Of a DNA stretch of 14,590 bases, positions 1-13,327 are shown piece after piece (the stretch's first letter is position 1; each line of letters starts with the position of its first letter). The translations under genes and the position numbers were made by a program. Source of the stretch: a virus. Taxonomy: Duplodnaviria > Heunggongvirae > Uroviricota > Caudoviricetes. The stretch covers positions 1-14,590 of IMG/VR virus record IMGVR_UViG_2563366895_000002. The stretch is one strand, 5' to 3'. A model generated the notes under the pieces. That model was not told the DNA's origin, made no database searches, and saw nothing but the letters and a program-made list of their open reading frames with translations.

Positions 1-1164
1 TTACGCCTTCTTTATATCCTCCATAATTCCAGAGTGGGACATATTTGGGACATTATCACCAAAAATGTCGTCTATTTTCCTCGCATGCTCTGTCAAATGA
101 TTAGGCGCAAGGTGAGCATACCTACGAACCATTTCTATGGACTCCCATCCGCCCATTTCCTGAAGCACTGATAATGGGACGCCTGACTGAATCAGCCAGC
201 TTGCCCAGGTGTGTCTGAGGTCATGGAAACGGAAATCTTCAATTCCTGCACGACGACAAGCTGATAGCCATGATGTCTTGCTGTCGATGCGCATCTTCCT
301 GACCGCAGGCGTTGATGTTCCATCTGCTCGCTTAGCCGCCTTGGTATGTACAAACACCCATTTGTGATGCTTGCCTATTTGATCACGCAACACTTTACAG
401 GCGGTATCGTTCAGCGCCACACCAATGGCGCGGTTTGATTTGCTCTCTTCTGGATTCACCCAGGCAACTCGTCGCTGCATGTCGATTTGTTGCCATTCCA
501 GATTTATGATGTTCGACTTTCTCAGACCAGTTGCCAGCGCAAACTTGACGACAGATTTCAGTGGTTCGGGGCACTCATCAATAAGGCGTTTTGCTTCCTC
601 CTTTTCCAGCCATCTGACTCGCTTGTTTCTGACCGCTGGTATCTTGATGACAGGCGCTTTTTCCAGCCACTTCCAGTCGCGTTCTGCAGCACGGAGAATG
701 GCCTTTATCATGGCAAGATGCTTTGCCTTTGTCTGAGTTGATACTGGCTTTGGTTCATAAACAGGCGGTTCTTTACCTTTCCTGATGGCGGCCTGAACTT
801 TCTGTTTCCATATTTCTTTCGTCTTTCTGTTATGCATTCTGCTTACAGCAGAGTAAATCTTTGCCTCCGAGATATCTTTAAGCCTTATACCCTCAAAATG
901 TTCAAGCCAGAACTCAATCCGGCTTTTATCTGAATCGAGAGATTTTTTATCAGCTTTTTCCTCAAGCCATCTTAGGCAGGCCTCTTCAAAAGTGACATCA
1001 GGTAAATCCCCTAGCTTTTCTACTCGCCAGAGTTCTGCTTTTCGCTTGTCGTGCAACTCCTGAGCTTGCCGCTTGTCCTTTGTGCCAAGAGATTCCTTAA
1101 TTCGTTTCCCGCCCGGGAGCGAATACGAGGCATACCATATTTCATTTCTGCGGAAGAGTGACAT
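1..1164 (-). CDS. intD: Phage tyrosine integrase (DLP12/P22-type), complete 387 aa
   Basis: Full-length ORF on the minus strand; stop codon at bases 1-3. C-terminal catalytic region shows the tyrosine-recombinase motifs ([10 protein letters not shown] ... VRRYAHL). Recognised from memory as the DLP12 integrase; the 3' end faces the window edge as expected for an int gene next to attL/tRNA. Confidence 0.9.
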
Positions 1165-1296: not shown

Positions 1297-1470
1297 TGTA
1301 AAAGCCGCGAGGACAACGCTGTCGCAGTGTTGGCGGAACTGCTGACGCGTGCTTATCCTTGTCCGCCGCTGACACCACGTATACCAGCCGCTGCGGGCCA
1401 CCCGGAGCACGCGGCACATTGCTTTGATGCTGAACTCAGCCTGATGTTTTTCAATAAAGACATACTTCAT
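1297..1470 (-). pseudogene. insF: IS3 OrfB (InsF) N-terminal fragment, truncated after ~58 codons
   Basis: [58 protein letters not shown] matches the InsF N-terminus, then diverges and hits a stop; the DDE catalytic core is absent. Confidence 0.75.
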
Positions 1471-1766
1471 TTCAGGCGCTTCGCGAAGTATGTCGCGGCC
1501 TTTTGGAGGATAGCCAGCTCTTCATCCCGTTCTGCCAGCTGGCGTTTGAGACGTGCAATCTCGGTAGACATCTCCAGTTCACGTTCAGAAGACGTCTGCT
1601 GATTTTGCTGTTTACTGCGCCAGTTGTAGAGCTGTGATTCATACAGGCTGAGTTCACGGGCTGCGGCAGTAACACCGATGCGTTCAGCAAGCTTCAGGGC
1701 TTCACTGCGAAATTCAGGCGAATGCTGTTTACGGGGTTTTTTACTGGTTGATACTGTTTTTGTCAT
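1467..1766 (-). CDS. insE: IS3 OrfA transposase subunit (InsE), 99 aa
   Basis: Translation [40 protein letters not shown]... matches IS3 OrfA; ATG at 1766 (the track's 1775 start is an upstream GTG). Confidence 0.85.
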
Positions 1767-1831
1767 GTGAGTCACCTCTGACTGAGAGTTTACTCACTTA
1801 GCCGCGTGTCCACTATTGCTGGGTAAGATCA

Positions 1832-2633: not shown

Positions 2634-4160
2634 ATGAAAAAAGCCATAGCATATATGCGATTTTCATCACCAGGTCAGATGTCTGGCGACTCATTAAACC
2701 GACAGAGAAGACTTATTGCTGAATGGTTAAAGGTAAATAGTGATTATTATCTTGATACCATAACATATGAAGATTTAGGATTAAGTGCATTCAAAGGAAA
2801 GCATGCACAATCAGGAGCTTTTTCGGAATTTTTAGATGCTATAGAGCATGGTTATATATTGCCAGGAACTACATTGTTAGTTGAAAGTCTGGACAGACTT
2901 TCAAGAGAAAAAGTCGGTGAAGCGATTGAGCGTCTGAAATTGATTTTGAATCACGGTATTGATGTTATAACTCTTTGCGATAATACAGTCTATAATATTG
3001 ACTCTTTGAATGATCCATATTCATTAATAAAAGCCATACTTATAGCACAAAGGGCAAATGAAGAAAGCGAGATAAAGTCAAGTCGGGTTAAATTATCATG
3101 GAAGAAAAAACGGCAGGATGCACTGGAGTCAGGCACGATTATGACGGCGTCTTGTCCGAGATGGCTCTCCTTAGATGACAAAAGAACGGCTTTTGTTCCA
3201 GACCCCGACAGGGTGAAAACTATTGAGCTAATTTTTAAACTCAGGATGGAAAGGCGCTCATTGAATGCAATAGCCAAGTATTTAAATGATCATGCTGTAA
3301 AGAATTTCTCAGGAAAAGAAAGTGCATGGGGACCTTCTGTAATTGAAAAATTATTAGCGAATAAAGCTCTGATAGGTATATGCGTACCTTCATATCGTGC
3401 AAGAGGTAAAGGAATAAGTGAAATCGCTGGCTATTATCCCAGAGTCATATCAGATGATTTGTTTTACGCTGTGCAGGAAATTCGGTTGGCACCTTTTGGT
3501 ATTAGCAATAGTAGCAAAAACCCTATGTTGATAAATCTACTTCGAACAGTTATGAAGTGCGAGGCTTGTGGTAATACCATGATTGTTCATGCGGTATCTG
3601 GAAGTTTGCATGGCTATTATGTTTGTCCGATGAGAAGACTGCATCGATGTGACAGGCCATCAATAAAGAGAGATTTGGTTGATTATAATATCATTAATGA
3701 GTTGCTTTTTAATTGTAGTAAAATCCAACCAGTTGAAAACAAGAAAGATGCTAATGAAACTTTAGAGTTGAAAATTATTGAGCTCCAGATGAAAATTAAT
3801 AATTTAATTGCTGCATTATCTGTTGCGCCTGAAGTTACCGCTATAGCAGAAAAAATCAGAGTATTAGATAAGGAATTACGAAGGGCTTCTGTATCATTAA
3901 AAACTTTGAAGAGTAAAGCGGTGAGCTCACTTGGTGATTTTCATGCTATTGACTTAACCAGTAAAAATGGGCGAGAGCTATGTCGTACACTTGCCTATAA
4001 AACATTCGAAAAAATCATAATCAATACAGATAATAAAACCTGTGATATCTATTTTATGAATGGCATTGTTTTTAAACACTATCCTTTAATGAAAACAATA
4101 TCCGCCCAGCAGGCGATAAGTACTCTCAAATATATGGTTGATGGTGAGGTTTATTTTTGA
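2634..4160 (+). CDS. ybcK: Large serine recombinase (resolvase/invertase-type N-terminal domain), YbcK-like, 508 aa
   Basis: N-terminal YMRFSSPGQ motif with the presumptive catalytic Ser; a Cys-rich segment (CEACGN...CPMRRLHRC) typical of large serine recombinases. Matches DLP12 YbcK by length and sequence from memory. ATG at 2634 with AGGTG 6 nt upstream. Gene is visibly AT-rich. Confidence 0.85.
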   Translation: MKKAIAYMRFSSPGQMSGDSLNRQRRLIAEWLKVNSDYYLDTITYEDLGLSAFKGKHAQSGAFSEFLDAIEHGYILPGTTLLVESLDRLSREKVGEAIERLKLILNHGIDVITLCDNTVYNIDSLNDPYSLIKAILIAQRANEESEIKSSRVKLSWKKKRQDALESGTIMTASCPRWLSLDDKRTAFVPDPDRVKTIELIFKLRMERRSLNAIAKYLNDHAVKNFSGKESAWGPSVIEKLLANKALIGICVPSYRARGKGISEIAGYYPRVISDDLFYAVQEIRLAPFGISNSSKNPMLINLLRTVMKCEACGNTMIVHAVSGSLHGYYVCPMRRLHRCDRPSIKRDLVDYNIINELLFNCSKIQPVENKKDANETLELKIIELQMKINNLIAALSVAPEVTAIAEKIRVLDKELRRASVSLKTLKSKAVSSLGDFHAIDLTSKNGRELCRTLAYKTFEKIIINTDNKTCDIYFMNGIVFKHYPLMKTISAQQAISTLKYMVDGEVYF

Positions 4161-4271
4161 GTAATAATCACTTTTTCAACCGTGCTATAGTAAGAAAGTT
4201 AGGTAAGTACAATAAAATTATCTATCCTGAACGAAGCGTCCTGAGCTATGGTTTTACTATAGGGACTGCCA

Positions 4272-4589
4272 ATGGATGCTGGCGTTCTCGTTCTAGCAGT
4301 TCAACAATCCCCAATCACAAAACAATTCACTGATAACGAACTTTGCACACTCGCCTGGTTATGGCGAGCAGGGAATGTGATGTTAATTGCCTACCAGAAC
4401 GTTACTCATCTTCTTCAGGATGCGGAGCATGGTGAAGCTGGTCACTTCACTTCCATCGAGCAAGAATATCCCCAGATACTCAACAGAGCGCGAGCAATCC
4501 TCGTCCGAGAAACGGCACATGTAAAACTTCAGCCGTGGCAGGATGATAAGTGGAGTCGAGTATTGCCGTATTTGCGTCAAATCTGTTAG
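4272..4589 (+). CDS. Hypothetical protein, 105 aa, no family recognised
   Basis: ATG-initiated ORF with GC content near the host average, flanked by AT-rich DNA. No motif I can assign and no convincing Shine-Dalgarno seen; may be a gene remnant. Confidence 0.35.
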   Translation: MDAGVLVLAVQQSPITKQFTDNELCTLAWLWRAGNVMLIAYQNVTHLLQDAEHGEAGHFTSIEQEYPQILNRARAILVRETAHVKLQPWQDDKWSRVLPYLRQIC

Positions 4590-4686
4590 GAGTATAGCCG
4601 CCAGCCATGAGTGTTGTATTAAAACAAGGATGTCTATATATGGGATAGCGAGAGTATGAATATCAGTTATTTTGAGAGTTAACTGA

Positions 4687-4710
4687 TTGTGAAATTAGTT
4701 TTTTTCACAA
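4687..4710. promoter_or_regulatory. Inverted repeat TTGTGAAA-N8-TTTCACAA upstream of the 309-aa ORF; candidate operator
   Basis: Perfect 8-bp arms at 4687-4694 and 4703-4710 in an AT-rich intergenic region about 85 bp upstream of the ATG at 4794. Confidence 0.25.
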
Positions 4711-4793
4711 ACGAGTGGGGTTACTATGATGAGTGTTCTAATGCATAGGGAACACCTAATTTTTTCAATGAATTCAAATTGATAGGATCAAAA

Positions 4794-5723
4794 ATGGCAC
4801 AACAGAGAACTACCTCCCTCAGATCCATACCTTTAGACTTAGATGTTAAGCAAGAGGCTGTCATTAACGGTATAGAAATGGGGGTACTCGATAACGGAAT
4901 TCCGTACCTTACTCAGAATGGGTTGGCAAATGTTTGTGGTGTTCAGCGTTTGCGAATCAAGGAAATTACCGATGAGTGGGCTCAATCCGTTGAGAACGGT
5001 ATTTTCAAAAAAGGAAGAATGACTTTTATTGGTACATATCTTCTTAATGAAGGTTTTACAGATGAAAAACTTTATATACCAATAATTCGAAATGGTGTTG
5101 AGTACCATGCTTATCCAGATGTTGTATGCATGGCTATACTTGAATACTATGCCTTTGAAGCAAAACAAGCAGAAAGTGAGACTGCAATTAGATCTTACAG
5201 AGAGCTTGCTAAAAAAGGCCTCAAGACATTTATATACGAGGCGCTAAAATATCAACCGGAGGACCCGTGGAGGCATTACCATGACAGAGTATCTTTATTA
5301 AAAGATAAGGGAACCATACCTGATGGGTATTTCATTATATTTAATGAAATTGCAGGTATGATGGTAGATCTCATCAATGCTGGATTAGCGATTAATCAGC
5401 ATACCGTACCTGATGGCAGTGTTGGTTCTTGCTGGGCGCGTCACTGGAAAGCAAAGGGGTTAGCAACAGAATTTGGAGAAAGAGTAGACTGTGAGCATTA
5501 TTACCCTGAAGATTTTCTTCAGGCAAGTTCCAATCCTCAGATCATTAATGCCTATCCTGATTCTGCATTGTCAGAGTTTCGTAGATGGTTTAAGCATGAA
5601 TATTTAACCACAAAGTTCCCACCGTATATTCTTAAAAAATCAAACGTGCTTCCTGGTGGTACAGAAGATGCTAATCGTCTGATAGAAGCTTTCAAAAAAT
5701 CAGAGCTAGAAAATAAACCATAA
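4794..5723 (+). CDS. Hypothetical protein, 309 aa, unknown function; candidate prophage cargo or defence protein
   Basis: ATG at 4794 preceded by AGGA at 4784-4787 (the track's 4779 start is an upstream TTG). Long clean ORF, visibly AT-rich, no transmembrane or signal sequence evident. N-terminal segment (GIEMGVLDNGIPYLTQNGLANVCGVQRLRIKEITDEW) is loosely reminiscent of KilA-N/Bro-N DNA-binding domains; this is unverified. Confidence 0.6.
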   Translation: MAQQRTTSLRSIPLDLDVKQEAVINGIEMGVLDNGIPYLTQNGLANVCGVQRLRIKEITDEWAQSVENGIFKKGRMTFIGTYLLNEGFTDEKLYIPIIRNGVEYHAYPDVVCMAILEYYAFEAKQAESETAIRSYRELAKKGLKTFIYEALKYQPEDPWRHYHDRVSLLKDKGTIPDGYFIIFNEIAGMMVDLINAGLAINQHTVPDGSVGSCWARHWKAKGLATEFGERVDCEHYYPEDFLQASSNPQIINAYPDSALSEFRRWFKHEYLTTKFPPYILKKSNVLPGGTEDANRLIEAFKKSELENKP

Positions 5724-5821
5724 TTGTTTTTTGGCTTTTGATTTTACATAATCATTTTGCCATAATCATGTCATCGGAGCCTGAACAACTCCGGTGACTT
5801 CTGCGCTAAACGGGGACGTTT

Positions 5822-5923
5822 ATGCGCACATACAATCCAAACTCTCTTCTCCCTTCACAGATGCAGAGATGCACCTGCGATTTTTTGCATCCAGCGTTTG
5901 ACCTCTGCGGAGGTGAAGCGTGA
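5822..5923 (+). CDS. ylcH: Small protein YlcH-like, 33 aa
   Basis: [36 protein letters not shown] whose stop overlaps the ybcN GTG start (GTGA); position and size match DLP12 ylcH from memory. Confidence 0.45.
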
Positions 5924-6375
5924 ATCTCCCACAAGATGGCATCAAATTACATCGCGGTAACTTCACCGCTATCGGTCGGCAGATCCAGCCTTATCTGGAG
6001 GAGGGCAAATGCTTTCGCATGGTGCTTAAACCGTGGCGTGAGAAACGCAGTCTTTCCCAGAATGCACTCAGCCACATGTGGTACAGCGAAATCAGTGAAT
6101 ACCTCATCAACAGGGGTAAAACGTTCGCCACTCCAGCTTGGGTAAAAGATGCTCTCAAACACACATATCTCGGTTATGAAACCAAAGACCTGGTTGATGT
6201 CGTAACCGGTGATATCACCACTATCCAGTCGTTACGCCATACCTCCGATCTTGATACCGGAGAGATGTATGTCTTCCTGTGTAAGGTTGAAGCCTGGGCG
6301 GTGAATATTGGCTGCCACCTGACTATTCCGCAGAGCTGCGAGTTCCAGCTGCTCCGTGACAAGCAGGAGGCGTAA
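5920..6375 (+). CDS. ybcN: YbcN, NinB/Orf-like DNA-binding protein, 151 aa
   Basis: GTG start at 5920 with GGAGG upstream; translation matches DLP12 YbcN from memory. Confidence 0.85.
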
Positions 6376-7883: not shown

Positions 7884-7972
7884 TTAGAAGCAAGGTTGTG
7901 CTTCTAAAGGAAGTGGCTTGAGGGAGCCACTTATATGTTGGGGAGGCAACGCCTCCCGCAACATATCTTTTT
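7884..7972 (+). terminator. Three consecutive hairpins downstream of quuD, the last followed by CTTTTT (tR'-like intrinsic terminator)
   Basis: Hairpins at 7884-7907 (TTAGAAGCA/TGCTTCTAA), 7911-7932 (AAGTGGCT/AGCCACTT) and 7933-7966 (ATATGTTGGGGAGGC/GCCTCCCGCAACATAT), then T-run 7967-7972. Position between Q and the lysis genes fits a lambdoid late leader/terminator. Confidence 0.5.
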
Positions 7973-12106: not shown

Positions 12107-13327
12107 ATGGAAGTCAACAAAAAGCAGCTGGCTGATATTTTCGGTGCGAGTATCCGTACCATTCAGAACTGGCAGGAGCAGGGAATGCCCGTTCTGCGAG
12201 GCGGTGGCAAGGGTAATGAGGTGCTTTATGATTCTGCCGCCGTCATAAAATGGTATGCCGAAACCATGCCACAGGCGAGTTCTGTTGTTTCAATTACGTT
12301 GATTGGTGGCGCTGGATTTAACGTGGGGTCACCTCAACAGGCAGGTATATCTGAACTTGTTTTACGTGCAGGTAATGGTAATCCGAAGGGGATTACTGGT
12401 GCTTTATGGCAGCGCACATCGACAGGGTTTACAAATTTTGCCTGGGTCAATACATCTGGTGATACTTACGATATTTACGTTGCAATCGGAAATTATGCGA
12501 CTGGTGTAAATATTCAATGGGATTATACCAGTAATGCCAGCGTGACGATTCATACGTCACCAGCATATTCTGCTAATAAGCCGGAAGGGTTAACGGACGG
12601 TACAGTTTATTCACTCTATACGCCATCAGAGCAGTTTTATCCGCCTGGCGCACCAATCCCGTGGCCATCAGATACCGTTCCGTCTGGCTATGCCCTGATG
12701 CAGGGGCAGACTTTTGACAAATCTGCATACCCGAAACTTGCAGCCGCTTATCCGTCAGGCGTGATCCCTGATATGCGTGGCTGGACGATTAAGGGCAAAC
12801 CTGCCAGTGGTCGGGCCGTATTGTCTCAGGAACAGGACGGCATTAAATCGCATACCCACAGCGCCAGCGCATCCAGTACGGATTTGGGGACGAAAACCAC
12901 ATCGTCGTTTGATTACGGCACTAAATCCACGAATAACACTGGTGCGCATACCCATAGTTTAAGTGGCAGCACGAATGCAGCTGGTAATCACAGCCATAGA
13001 GATGGCCGTCGATTTAACCCCAGTGTTTTTAAAGATACTTATCAATATGGTTATACAAGCTCAGGTCAAAATACCTGGGGTGTACAAGGCTCAGTAGGTA
13101 TGTCTACGGGGTGGTTAGCGAATACCAGTACAGATGGTAATCATAGCCATTCACTGTCCGGCACAGCAGCATCTGCAGGTGCACACGCGCATACTGTCGG
13201 TATTGGTGCTCATACGCACTCCGTTGCGATTGGTTCACATGGACACACCATCACCGTTAACGCTGCTGGTAACGCGGAAAACACCGTCAAAAACATCGCA
13301 TTTAACTATATTGTGAGGCTTGCATAA
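12107..13327 (+). CDS. Chimeric ORF: terminase small subunit Nu1 N-terminus (aa 1-~52, winged-helix DNA-binding part) fused in frame to a side tail fibre C-terminal region (~354 aa) with HxH repeats
   Basis: First 52 residues [52 protein letters not shown] match lambda Nu1; after about 12264 the sequence switches to tail-fibre-like sequence ([48 protein letters not shown]...) with six HxH motifs (GAHTHS, GNHSHR, GNHSHS, GAHAHT, GAHTHS, GSHGHT). Confidence 0.8.

What the first reader, a model, noticed from the sequence alone, without database searches (positions are those of the whole stretch)
4590..4793. AT-rich leader with a perfect inverted repeat upstream of the 309-aa ORF
TTGTGAAA-N8-TTTCACAA (4687-4710) is a perfect 8-bp-arm palindrome in an otherwise low-complexity AT-rich intergenic region. 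It resembles an operator for a dimeric regulator and implies the downstream gene is independently regulated. The half-sites look like CRP half-sites (TGTGA/TCACA) but the spacing is 11 bp rather than 6.
Basis: seen in the sequence. Interest (0 to 1): 0.35.

Follow-up and report, generated by a model that had tools for sequence, protein, structure and literature searches.

The report
Leader of a BstA phage-defence gene
The palindrome is real, but it occurs in only one recently spread E. coli allele and is not conserved; the region is the control leader of a known prophage defence gene (bstA), and its conserved parts are a -10-like box and a pair of direct repeats that look like the gene's "anti-BstA" self-immunity element.

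Summary
TTGTGAAA-N8-TTTCACAA is at 4687-4710, and a second perfect 8-bp inverted repeat abuts it at 4662-4687. Chance gives at least one such repeat in 5% of shuffles of the leader, and two in 1.3%.

- The 309-aa ORF is BstA, a known prophage abortive-infection protein (PADLOC E=3.6e-121). It sits in a 1.15-kb low-GC cassette in the nin region of a DLP12-like prophage.
- The palindrome exists only in identical copies of this leader: 109 of 5,426 complete E. coli genomes plus a few metagenome contigs.
- The nearest other alleles (92% amino-acid identity or less) have unrelated sequence at that position.
- It is not a CRP site, not a terminator, and unlike the prophage's cI/Cro operators.
- Its right arm supplies the -35 of the only sigma-70-like promoter match (TTTTCA-17-TATGAT).

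What is conserved lies downstream: the -10-like box, the motif AGRGAACACCY (DR1, 4745-4757) and a second copy inside the gene (DR2, 4802-4815) 57 bp away. Across 32 non-redundant bstA loci, including BTP1 where the aba element was defined experimentally, upstream-versus-CDS direct repeats pile up at 56/57 bp. Decoys do not show this, and a hold-out set replicates it. The leader therefore probably carries this allele's aba element.

Interest is low for the palindrome and moderate for the aba signature.

The parts
4272..4589 (+). 105-aa ORF, a 3' remnant of a rha/antirepressor-type gene (P22AR C-terminal domain). It marks the left flank of the cassette.
   Evidence: Pfam PF10548 E=7.7e-14. It is 86.5% identical to the 3' end of the Rha gene of phage PhiR5_1, and homology stops at 4587.
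4588..5736 (+). bstA cassette (a 'moron'): leader plus bstA. It has low GC (38%) and is absent from related lambdoid phages, which carry other cargo at this position.
   Evidence: Homology breakpoints at 4587/4577 and 5737 against PhiR5_1 and Turner. GC content. Present in 109/5,426 complete E. coli genomes.
4662..4687 (.). Lineage-specific; function unknown.
   Evidence: -6.8 kcal/mol as RNA, z -3.2. Absent from relatives.
4687..4710 (.). It is lineage-specific, and its right arm overlaps the -35 candidate.
   Evidence: Not conserved. Only 2 G-C pairs and no T tail, so not a terminator.
4702..4730 (+). Best sigma-70-like promoter candidate: -35 TTTTCA (4702-4707), 17-bp spacer, -10 TATGAT (4725-4730). 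An alternative -35 is TTCACA (4704-4709) with a 15-bp spacer.
   Evidence: 9/12 matches and the only match in 4200-5000, though 2.0 are expected by chance. The -10-like hexamer aligns with a conserved (C)TATCAT/TATTAT in about 90%-identical relatives. The start site is not mapped, so this is inference.
4733..4756 (+). Weak dyad GTGTTC-N11-GAACAC. It is a strong 11-14-bp hairpin in relatives, and its right arm is DR1.
   Evidence: window -7.1 kcal/mol (z -1.35); L034 and L029 -17.7 and -17.6 kcal/mol (z -4.9 and -6.0). The left arm decays without compensating changes in L028 and L042-L044 while DR1 stays constant.
4745..4757 (+). DR1, ATAGGGAACACCT: the upstream copy of the candidate aba direct repeat and the most conserved non-coding motif of the leader.
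   Evidence: Exact match to the clade consensus AGRGAACACCY.
4784..4787 (+). Shine-Dalgarno AGGA, 6 nt before the ATG.
   Evidence: Sequence. Two of the three polymorphisms found among the 109 genomes fall here (G4785T, A4787G).
4794..5723 (+). bstA: a 309-aa BstA-family abortive-infection phage-defence protein.
   Evidence: PADLOC PDLC02356 E=3.6e-121 over 5-291/292 of the profile. 40% identical to BstA of BTP1 over 99% of its length. PGAP names split copies 'BstA C-terminal domain-containing protein'.
4802..4815 (+). DR2, ACAGAGAACTACCT: the in-gene copy of the direct repeat, 57 bp from DR1. It encodes Q-R-T-T-S.
   Evidence: 8/12 ungapped matches at 57 bp, or 10/11 with one 1-nt gap. The spacing matches the family-wide 56/57-bp peak.

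Best explanation
Region 4590-4793 is the 5' control leader of a self-contained bstA defence cassette carried in the nin region of a DLP12-like lambdoid prophage.

Proposed mechanism, with the status of each step:
1. Inferred: bstA is transcribed from its own promoter. The -10 is TATGAT at 4725-4730. The -35 (TTTTCA/TTCACA at 4702-4709) happens to lie in the right arm of the palindrome.
2. Shown by homology: the product is BstA, an abortive-infection protein. In the BTP1 system it blocks replication of invading phage DNA (Owen et al. 2021, PMC8585504).
3. Inferred from comparative sequence: the functionally constrained non-coding element is not the palindrome. It is a bipartite direct repeat, DR1 at 4745-4757 in the leader and DR2 at 4802-4815 inside the gene, 57 bp apart and straddling the start codon. 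This is the architecture of the experimentally defined 63-bp aba (anti-BstA) DNA element of BTP1, which has terminal CCCGCC repeats 56 bp apart. In BTP1 that element protects the prophage's own replicating DNA from its BstA.
4. Inferred: the palindrome, and the inverted repeat next to it, belong to a roughly 130-bp segment (4590-4720) unique to this allele. It is most likely an incidental or at most promoter-shaping feature, not the binding site of a dedicated regulator.
For: - BstA identity.
- Cassette boundaries and low GC.
- The palindrome is confined to identical copies of the leader (109 E. coli genomes, 5 IMG/VR contigs, 5 metagenome contigs) and absent from every allele at 92% identity or less.
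- The only promoter-like match uses the right arm as its -35.
- The -10-like hexamer, DR1 and DR2 are conserved across 12 distinct leaders.
- Relatives with a divergent upstream gene keep the same core, so a promoter must be internal.
- Family-wide spacing test on 32 non-redundant loci: the best upstream-versus-CDS 12-mer repeat falls at 56/57 bp in 19/32 loci, against 2-5/32 in five decoy positions. Mean matches are 7.38 at 56 bp against 5.53 +/- 0.38 at other spacings.
- Hold-out set of 21 metagenome loci: 8/21 at 56/57 bp, mean 6.81 against 5.66 +/- 0.40, including a perfect 12/12 repeat.
- The repeat sequence changes between clades while both copies stay alike (AGAGAACACCCT; TTGAGCATCACC; AACCGGCA; CCCGCC in BTP1).
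- BTP1's known aba repeats are recovered by the same scan at 56 bp; paper read.
Against: - The promoter is a consensus match only, and such matches are expected by chance (2.0 per 800 bp).
- Relatives lack a convincing -35.
- No transcription start data are available.
- In the window itself the DR1/DR2 match is modest: 8/12 ungapped, and 9% of other adjacent-spacing pairs (d, d+1) do as well.
- DR2 is under coding constraint.
- The self-versus-cross repeat comparison is biased by how DR1 was chosen.
- In several relatives DR1 sits in a strong hairpin followed by a T-rich tract that looks like a terminator or attenuator. An RNA-level role for that element is therefore not excluded.
- aba function was never tested for this allele.
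- Two abutting perfect 8-bp inverted repeats occur in only 1.3% of shuffles, so 'incidental' is not comfortable.
Confidence: 0.55

Rival explanations
1. The palindrome is a true operator. A dimeric DNA-binding protein, from the host or another prophage, binds TTGTGAAA-N8-TTTCACAA over the -35 and represses or activates the bstA promoter.
For: It has perfect dyad symmetry with a 16-bp centre-to-centre distance between the arms, and it overlaps the -35 of the only promoter-like match. A palindrome this good occurs in only about 5% of shuffles of the leader.
Against: - It is not conserved in any diverged homologous leader.
- It occurs once only in the window and in the intact relative prophage.
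- The cassette carries no regulator gene.
- It is unlike the prophage's cI/Cro operators.
- It is not a CRP site.
- The 33 IMG/VR matches are the same cassette, one unrelated phage lineage, or singletons, roughly what chance gives for 16 specified bases.
- One carrier genome has a 9-nt spacer because of an extra T in the T-run. This may be a sequencing error.
Confidence: 0.15
2. The two abutting inverted repeats act at the RNA level. They would form tandem hairpins in read-through transcripts from ybcK or the rha remnant, acting as a processing or stability signal, or as a weak insulator, ahead of the bstA promoter.
For: Both hairpins appear in the MFE and centroid folds of the leader. Each folds better than shuffles (z -3.2 and -2.8).
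Against: The stems are weak, A-U-rich and 8 bp long (about -7 kcal/mol), with no U tract, so they are not intrinsic terminators. The leader as a whole is not unusually structured (z +0.42). There is no Rfam match and no conservation.
Confidence: 0.07
3. The conserved DR1 hairpin, not an aba element, is the key leader feature. It would be a transcription attenuator or terminator, or a 5'-terminal stabilising stem-loop of bstA mRNA, and the DR1/DR2 resemblance would be secondary.
For: Relatives have a hairpin of -17.6 to -17.7 kcal/mol with a T-rich tail, flagged as terminator-like. It lies immediately after the -10-like box.
Against: - The left arm decays without compensatory change in L028 and L042-L044 while DR1 is kept.
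- The window's own stem is weak (z -1.35).
- The alphaproteobacterial clade places DR1 differently, in the left arm plus loop of its hairpin, and has no T tract.
- The 56/57-bp relation to DR2 holds across clades whatever the hairpin geometry.
Confidence: 0.15

Closest known systems
BstA-aba abortive-infection and self-immunity system of Salmonella prophage BTP1 (Owen et al. 2021, Cell Host Microbe; PMC8585504)
   Same: - The full-length BstA-family protein is 40% identical to BTP1 BstA and gives PADLOC E=3.6e-121.
- It is prophage-borne.
- A pair of short direct repeats straddles the start codon, 57 bp apart against 56 bp in BTP1.
- The copies lie at about -49 and +9, against -29 and +28 in BTP1.
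   Different: - The repeat sequence differs (AGRGAAC(N)ACCT against CCCGCC), as expected for cognate, allele-specific aba elements.
- The gene lies in the nin region between a rha remnant and ninB, not downstream of the cI repressor. The paper called the cI-downstream position 'strikingly conserved'.
- It must therefore use its own promoter rather than the repressor's.
- No intrinsic terminator follows the gene.
- aba function is untested here.
- It is also distinct from the tested E. coli homologue BstA-Ec (298 aa, NCTC10963; about the same as phage CL707, L062).
CRP (cAMP receptor protein) binding site
   Same: TGTGA and TCACA pentamers in inverted orientation.
   Different: The pentamers are 11 nt apart instead of 6. 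That places the half-sites on different faces of the helix and out of reach of one CRP dimer (established knowledge). No TGTGA-N6-TCACA match with 2 or fewer mismatches exists in the leader.
Prophage 'morons' (independently transcribed accessory cassettes in lambdoid phages)
   Same: A discrete insert with lower GC than its surroundings, replaced by other cargo in related phages. It encodes a lysogen-benefit (defence) gene and has its own putative promoter.
   Different: No recognisable terminator at the 3' end. The cassette ends 13 bp after the stop codon.

Membership tests
CRP-binding site | TGTGA-N6-TCACA core within a 22-bp dyad | tested here: not met
   The spacing is 11 nt. The pattern search with 2 or fewer mismatches finds nothing in 4590-4793.
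Operator of a dimeric regulator | Dyad symmetry placed over or next to promoter elements | tested here: met
   Perfect 8-bp arms. The right arm overlaps the predicted -35. The promoter itself is only predicted.
Operator of a dimeric regulator | Conservation of the site upstream of orthologous genes | tested here: not met
   Absent from all 11 other distinct leaders of the roughly 90% clade, and from Lonsdalea, Xenorhabdus and the 59-69% alleles.
Operator of a dimeric regulator | A cognate regulator gene nearby, or further copies of the site (a regulon) | tested here: not met
   The cassette has no regulator gene. There is a single copy in the window and in the intact relative prophage. The immunity operators are unrelated. 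IMG/VR shows no recurrence.
Operator of a dimeric regulator | Specific protein binding and an effect on transcription | not testable with these tools
   Needs EMSA or pull-down and reporter assays.
Rho-independent terminator | G+C-rich stem followed by a T tract | tested here: not met
   The stem has 2 G-C pairs out of 8 and is followed by ACGAGTGG. The terminator scan does not report it.
BstA defence protein family | [quoted passage not shown] | tested here: met
   PADLOC PDLC02356 E=3.6e-121, residues 10-304 against 5-291/292 of the profile. tblastn to BTP1 BstA gives 40% identity over 99% of the length.
BstA defence protein family | Prophage-borne | tested here: met
   The window and the GE3 locus carry lambdoid genes (O/P replication, ren, ninB/ybcN, ninE, rusA, quuD, lysis genes). 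This agrees with PMC10121019, where bstA occurs only in lambda-like prophages at the tRNA-Arg hotspot.
aba (anti-BstA) element | A short DNA element spanning the bstA start codon, bounded by direct repeats about 56 bp apart | tested here: met
   DR1 at 4745-4757 and DR2 at 4802-4815 at 57 bp, 8/12 ungapped or 10/11 with one gap. The signal is modest in this locus alone. The family-wide spacing peak is strong and replicated.
aba (anti-BstA) element | Confers cognate self-immunity when present on replicating (high-copy) DNA; point mutations in either repeat abolish it | not testable with these tools
   This is the experimental definition in PMC8585504. It has not been done for this allele.
Sigma-70 promoter | -35 and -10 hexamers with a 16-18-bp spacer, and a mapped start site | tested here: inconclusive
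   TTTTCA-17-TATGAT matches 9/12, at a frequency chance would give. The -10-like box is conserved in relatives, but their -35 is poor. No start-site data.

The most novel reading that the evidence does not exclude
The leader plus the first 22 nt of the gene (about 4745-4815) is the cognate aba self-immunity element of this BstA allele. More generally, aba elements across the whole BstA family share one architecture: two clade-specific direct repeats of about 12 bp, 56-57 bp apart (about 5.4 helical turns), straddling the start codon, with the upstream copy often embedded in a hairpin-forming dyad. That would mean BstA, or a partner, reads a bipartite DNA signature. It would also make aba elements predictable from sequence for any bstA allele, which the original study did not report.
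Probability: 0.55. Interest if true: 0.5.

Novelty: new member of a known kind. Interest (0 to 1): 0.27.

Why it matters
The palindrome itself matters little. It is a single-allele feature with no comparative support, and the gene it precedes belongs to a known defence family.

The useful outcome is the re-annotation.
- A 'hypothetical protein' present in about 2% of complete E. coli genomes is a BstA abortive-infection gene.
- It sits in an atypical prophage position: the nin region rather than next to the repressor.
- Its leader carries what looks like the cognate anti-BstA element.

How aba neutralises BstA is unknown. If the 56/57-bp direct-repeat signature is the general form of aba, the recognition determinants can be predicted and swapped between alleles. 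That turns an open mechanistic question into a simple plasmid-rescue and mutagenesis experiment.

Tried and rejected
- CRP site: rejected on spacing and by pattern search.
- Intrinsic terminator for the upstream gene: rejected, because the stem is weak and A-T-rich with no T tract.
- Known RNA family: an Rfam E-value scan of 4200-6000 gave only a spurious snoRNA hit inside the CDS.
- Structured leader RNA: the whole leader folds no better than shuffles.
- Repeated element of E. coli (REP, MITE-like): the leader occurs once per genome, and only in the 109 carrier genomes.
- Shared operator in other phages: the 33 IMG/VR matches to the degenerate palindrome show no common context.
- cI/Cro operator of the parent prophage: the immunity-region dyads of the intact relative are unrelated.
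- Within-species polymorphism as a test: there are only 3 variants among 109 genomes and none in the arms, so the test has no power.
- Intermediate-divergence alleles (93-99%) that might share the leader: none found in the viral, genome or metagenome collections.
- Identity with the experimentally tested BstA-Ec: rejected, because that one is 298 aa with a different leader, about the same as phage CL707.
- Small leader ORFs (13 aa from 4607, 18 aa from 4727): seen by eye but not conserved in relatives, so dropped.
- Self-versus-cross repeat comparison: positive (8.9 against 7.2 matches) but biased by construction, so not relied on.

Full report
**1. The observation**

The sequence reads ...AACTGA TTGTGAAA TTAGTTTT TTTCACAA ACGAG..., with arms at 4687-4694 and 4703-4710. 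A second perfect 8-bp inverted repeat, ATCAGTTA-N10-TAACTGAT (4662-4687), abuts it and shares T4687.

- In 5,000 dinucleotide-preserving shuffles of 4590-4793, at least one perfect 8-bp inverted repeat with a spacer of 12 nt or less appears in 5.3%, and at least two in 1.3%.
- Each repeat would form a hairpin of about -7 kcal/mol (z about -3).
- The 241-nt leader as a whole is no more structured than shuffles (z +0.42).
- The region is AT-rich (33.8% GC) but not low-complexity.

Its statistical weight is modest.

**2. What the surroundings are**

The window is a DLP12-like defective lambdoid prophage of E. coli. It carries an integrase, an IS3 remnant, emrE, ybcK, ybcN/ninB, ninE, ybcO, rusA, quuD, a porin, lysis genes, bor/iss, tail-fibre genes and an invertase.

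The 309-aa ORF (4794-5723) gives no Pfam or NCBIfam hit. It matches the PADLOC BstA model end to end (E=3.6e-121) and is 40% identical to BstA of Salmonella prophage BTP1. Newer RefSeq annotations name IS-split copies 'BstA C-terminal domain-containing protein'.

BstA is a characterised abortive-infection protein. Its prophage escapes self-targeting through aba, a 63-bp DNA element covering -29 to +34 of the start codon. Both of its terminal CCCGCC direct repeats are required, and each BstA variant has its own cognate aba (Owen et al. 2021, PMC8585504).

The present allele is not the E. coli homologue tested there. That one is 298 aa with a different leader, essentially that of phage CL707.

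**3. The cassette**

Related phages match the window up to 4577/4587 and again from 5737: PhiR5_1 to 4587 and Turner to 4577. Between those points they carry other small genes.

The 105-aa ORF upstream (4272-4589) is the 3' remnant of a rha/antirepressor gene (Pfam P22AR_C). So 4588-5736 is a discrete, low-GC (38%) cassette made of the leader and bstA, inserted between rha and ninB.

This is not the 'downstream of cI' position described as conserved for bstA, so the gene cannot borrow the repressor promoter. The cassette occurs in 109 of 5,426 complete E. coli genomes. This fits a pan-genome survey that found bstA only in lambda-like prophages at the tRNA-Arg hotspot (PMC10121019).

**4. Is the palindrome conserved?**

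It is not, and it cannot be tested within the species.

- All 109 genomic copies of the leader are at least 99.5% identical.
- The only three variants are an extra T in the spacer T-run and two changes in the Shine-Dalgarno sequence.
- Viral and metagenome collections hold either identical leaders or alleles at 92% protein identity or less. Nothing lies in between.
- In 11 other distinct leaders of the roughly 90% clade, the sequence aligned to 4640-4720 is unrelated and contains no palindrome.
- The Lonsdalea, Xenorhabdus and 59-69% alleles also lack it.
- There is no second copy in the window or in the intact relative prophage of strain GE3.
- That prophage's immunity operators are of a different type.
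- The 33 IMG/VR matches to TTGTGAAA-N8-TTTCACAA are five copies of this cassette, one unrelated phage lineage, and singletons.
- CRP is excluded by spacing and by a pattern search.
- A terminator is excluded by the weak A-T-rich stem and the missing T tract.
- Rfam finds nothing.

**5. What the palindrome may still do**

The only sigma-70-like match in 4200-5000 is TTTTCA (4702-4707), a 17-bp spacer, and TATGAT (4725-4730). An alternative -35, TTCACA (4704-4709), gives a 15-bp spacer. Either -35 lies in the right arm. The match alone is at chance level.

However, the -10-like hexamer aligns with a conserved (C)TATCAT/TATTAT in the relatives. Three relatives have a divergently oriented upstream gene, so their promoter must lie in the leader. 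Relatives have no good -35.

My reading is that the allele-specific segment 4590-4720 happens to supply a better -35, and that the dyad is incidental. A real operator cannot be excluded, and I give it about 0.15.

**6. What is conserved**

Downstream of the -10-like box, all members of the clade keep AGRGAACACCY. This is DR1, at 4745-4757 in the window with an exact consensus match at 4747-4757.

In most relatives DR1 is the right arm of a strong hairpin: -17.7 and -17.6 kcal/mol, z -4.9 and -6.0, and terminator-like in L034. The left arm decays without compensation in L028 and L042-L044 while DR1 stays constant. The window's own stem is weak. DR1 therefore behaves as a sequence motif rather than an RNA stem.

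A second copy, AGAGA(A/T)C(N)ACCT, lies inside the gene (DR2, 4802-4815) exactly 57 bp from DR1.

**7. Family-wide test**

[quoted passage not shown] The loci were gamma-, beta- and alphaproteobacterial and included BTP1, CL707 and a Klebsiella phage.

| Set | Loci with best spacing at 56/57 bp | Mean matches at 56 bp | Mean matches at other spacings |
|---|---|---|---|
| 32 non-redundant loci | 19/32 | 7.38 | 5.53 +/- 0.38 |
| Five decoy positions inside the CDS | 2-5/32 | n/a | n/a |
| Hold-out, 21 metagenome loci | 8/21 | 6.81 | 5.66 +/- 0.40 |

The hold-out set includes a perfect 12/12 repeat (ATTTACCCGCCG) at 56 bp.

The repeat sequence differs between clades while the two copies track each other:
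- AGAGAACACCCT in the window's clade
- TTGAGCATCACC or TTGGTCAYCACC in the alphaproteobacterial clade
- AACCGGCA in locus L112
- CCCGCC in BTP1, the experimentally defined aba repeats, recovered at 56 bp

I found no paper in the held library that reports this generalisation.

In the window alone the signal is modest: 8/12 ungapped, or 10/11 with one gap. DR2 is also coding. The assignment of 4745-4815 as this allele's aba is therefore an inference (about 0.55), not a demonstration.

**8. Verdict**

The region is the leader of a known defence gene. Its constrained elements are a -10-like box and the upstream half of a probable aba self-immunity element.

- Novelty: a new member of a known system, in an atypical prophage position.
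- Interest: low for the palindrome; moderate for the family-wide aba signature, which is directly testable by plasmid rescue and repeat mutagenesis.

Noticed in passing
window 4745-4757 and 4802-4815; loci L002-L021, L028-L062, L104-L132: Across the BstA family, a clade-specific direct repeat of about 12 nt links the leader to the first codons of the gene at a fixed 56/57-bp spacing. This is the architecture of the experimentally defined aba element of BTP1. The held literature does not appear to describe it as a family-wide rule.
   Followed up: yes
L034 1436-1466, L029 about 1403-1435; window 4733-4756: In the roughly 90%-identical alleles, DR1 is the right arm of a strong hairpin (-17.6 to -17.7 kcal/mol), often followed by a T-rich tract that looks like a terminator or attenuator. 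It sits only about 35 nt before the start codon. In the window the stem is degraded.
   Followed up: partly
window 5723-5740: No intrinsic terminator follows bstA. The cassette ends 13 bp after the stop codon, so transcripts may read into the small ORF and ybcN (ninB) downstream. The BTP1, Kp and Ec genes, by contrast, were cloned with their native terminators.
   Followed up: partly
window 4588-5736 compared with L022 (PhiR5_1) and L023 (Turner): The slot between rha and ninB is a cargo-exchange site. Related phages carry a 168-aa ORF or several small ORFs there instead of bstA.
   Followed up: partly
window 2881-2904: A perfect palindrome with 11-bp arms, TTGAAAGTCTG-N2-CAGACTTTCAA, lies inside the ybcK (large serine recombinase family) coding sequence.
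   Followed up: no
window 7884-7907 and 7911-7932: Two adjacent perfect inverted repeats lie just downstream of quuD (the Q antiterminator). They are probably the terminator or qut region of the late operon.
   Followed up: no
window 12107-13327: This ORF begins like a Nu1/NohD terminase small subunit ([29 protein letters not shown]...) and continues as a Gly/His-rich tail-fibre-like protein. It looks like a deletion fusion that removed the head and tail genes of the defective prophage. Judged by eye from the translation only.
   Followed up: no
window 1467-1775 (-) and 1-1164 (-): An IS3 orfA-like ORF sits between the integrase and emrE. In the intact relative (E. coli GE3, L001) this interval holds the immunity and replication genes, so the window's prophage has lost them.
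   Followed up: partly
L138 (E. coli SA53-3), equivalent to window 4699-4705: One carrier genome has an extra T in the T7 run of the palindrome spacer, giving N9 instead of N8. In the same record the upstream rha remnant is annotated with an internal stop. It could be a real slippage variant or an assembly error.
   Followed up: no
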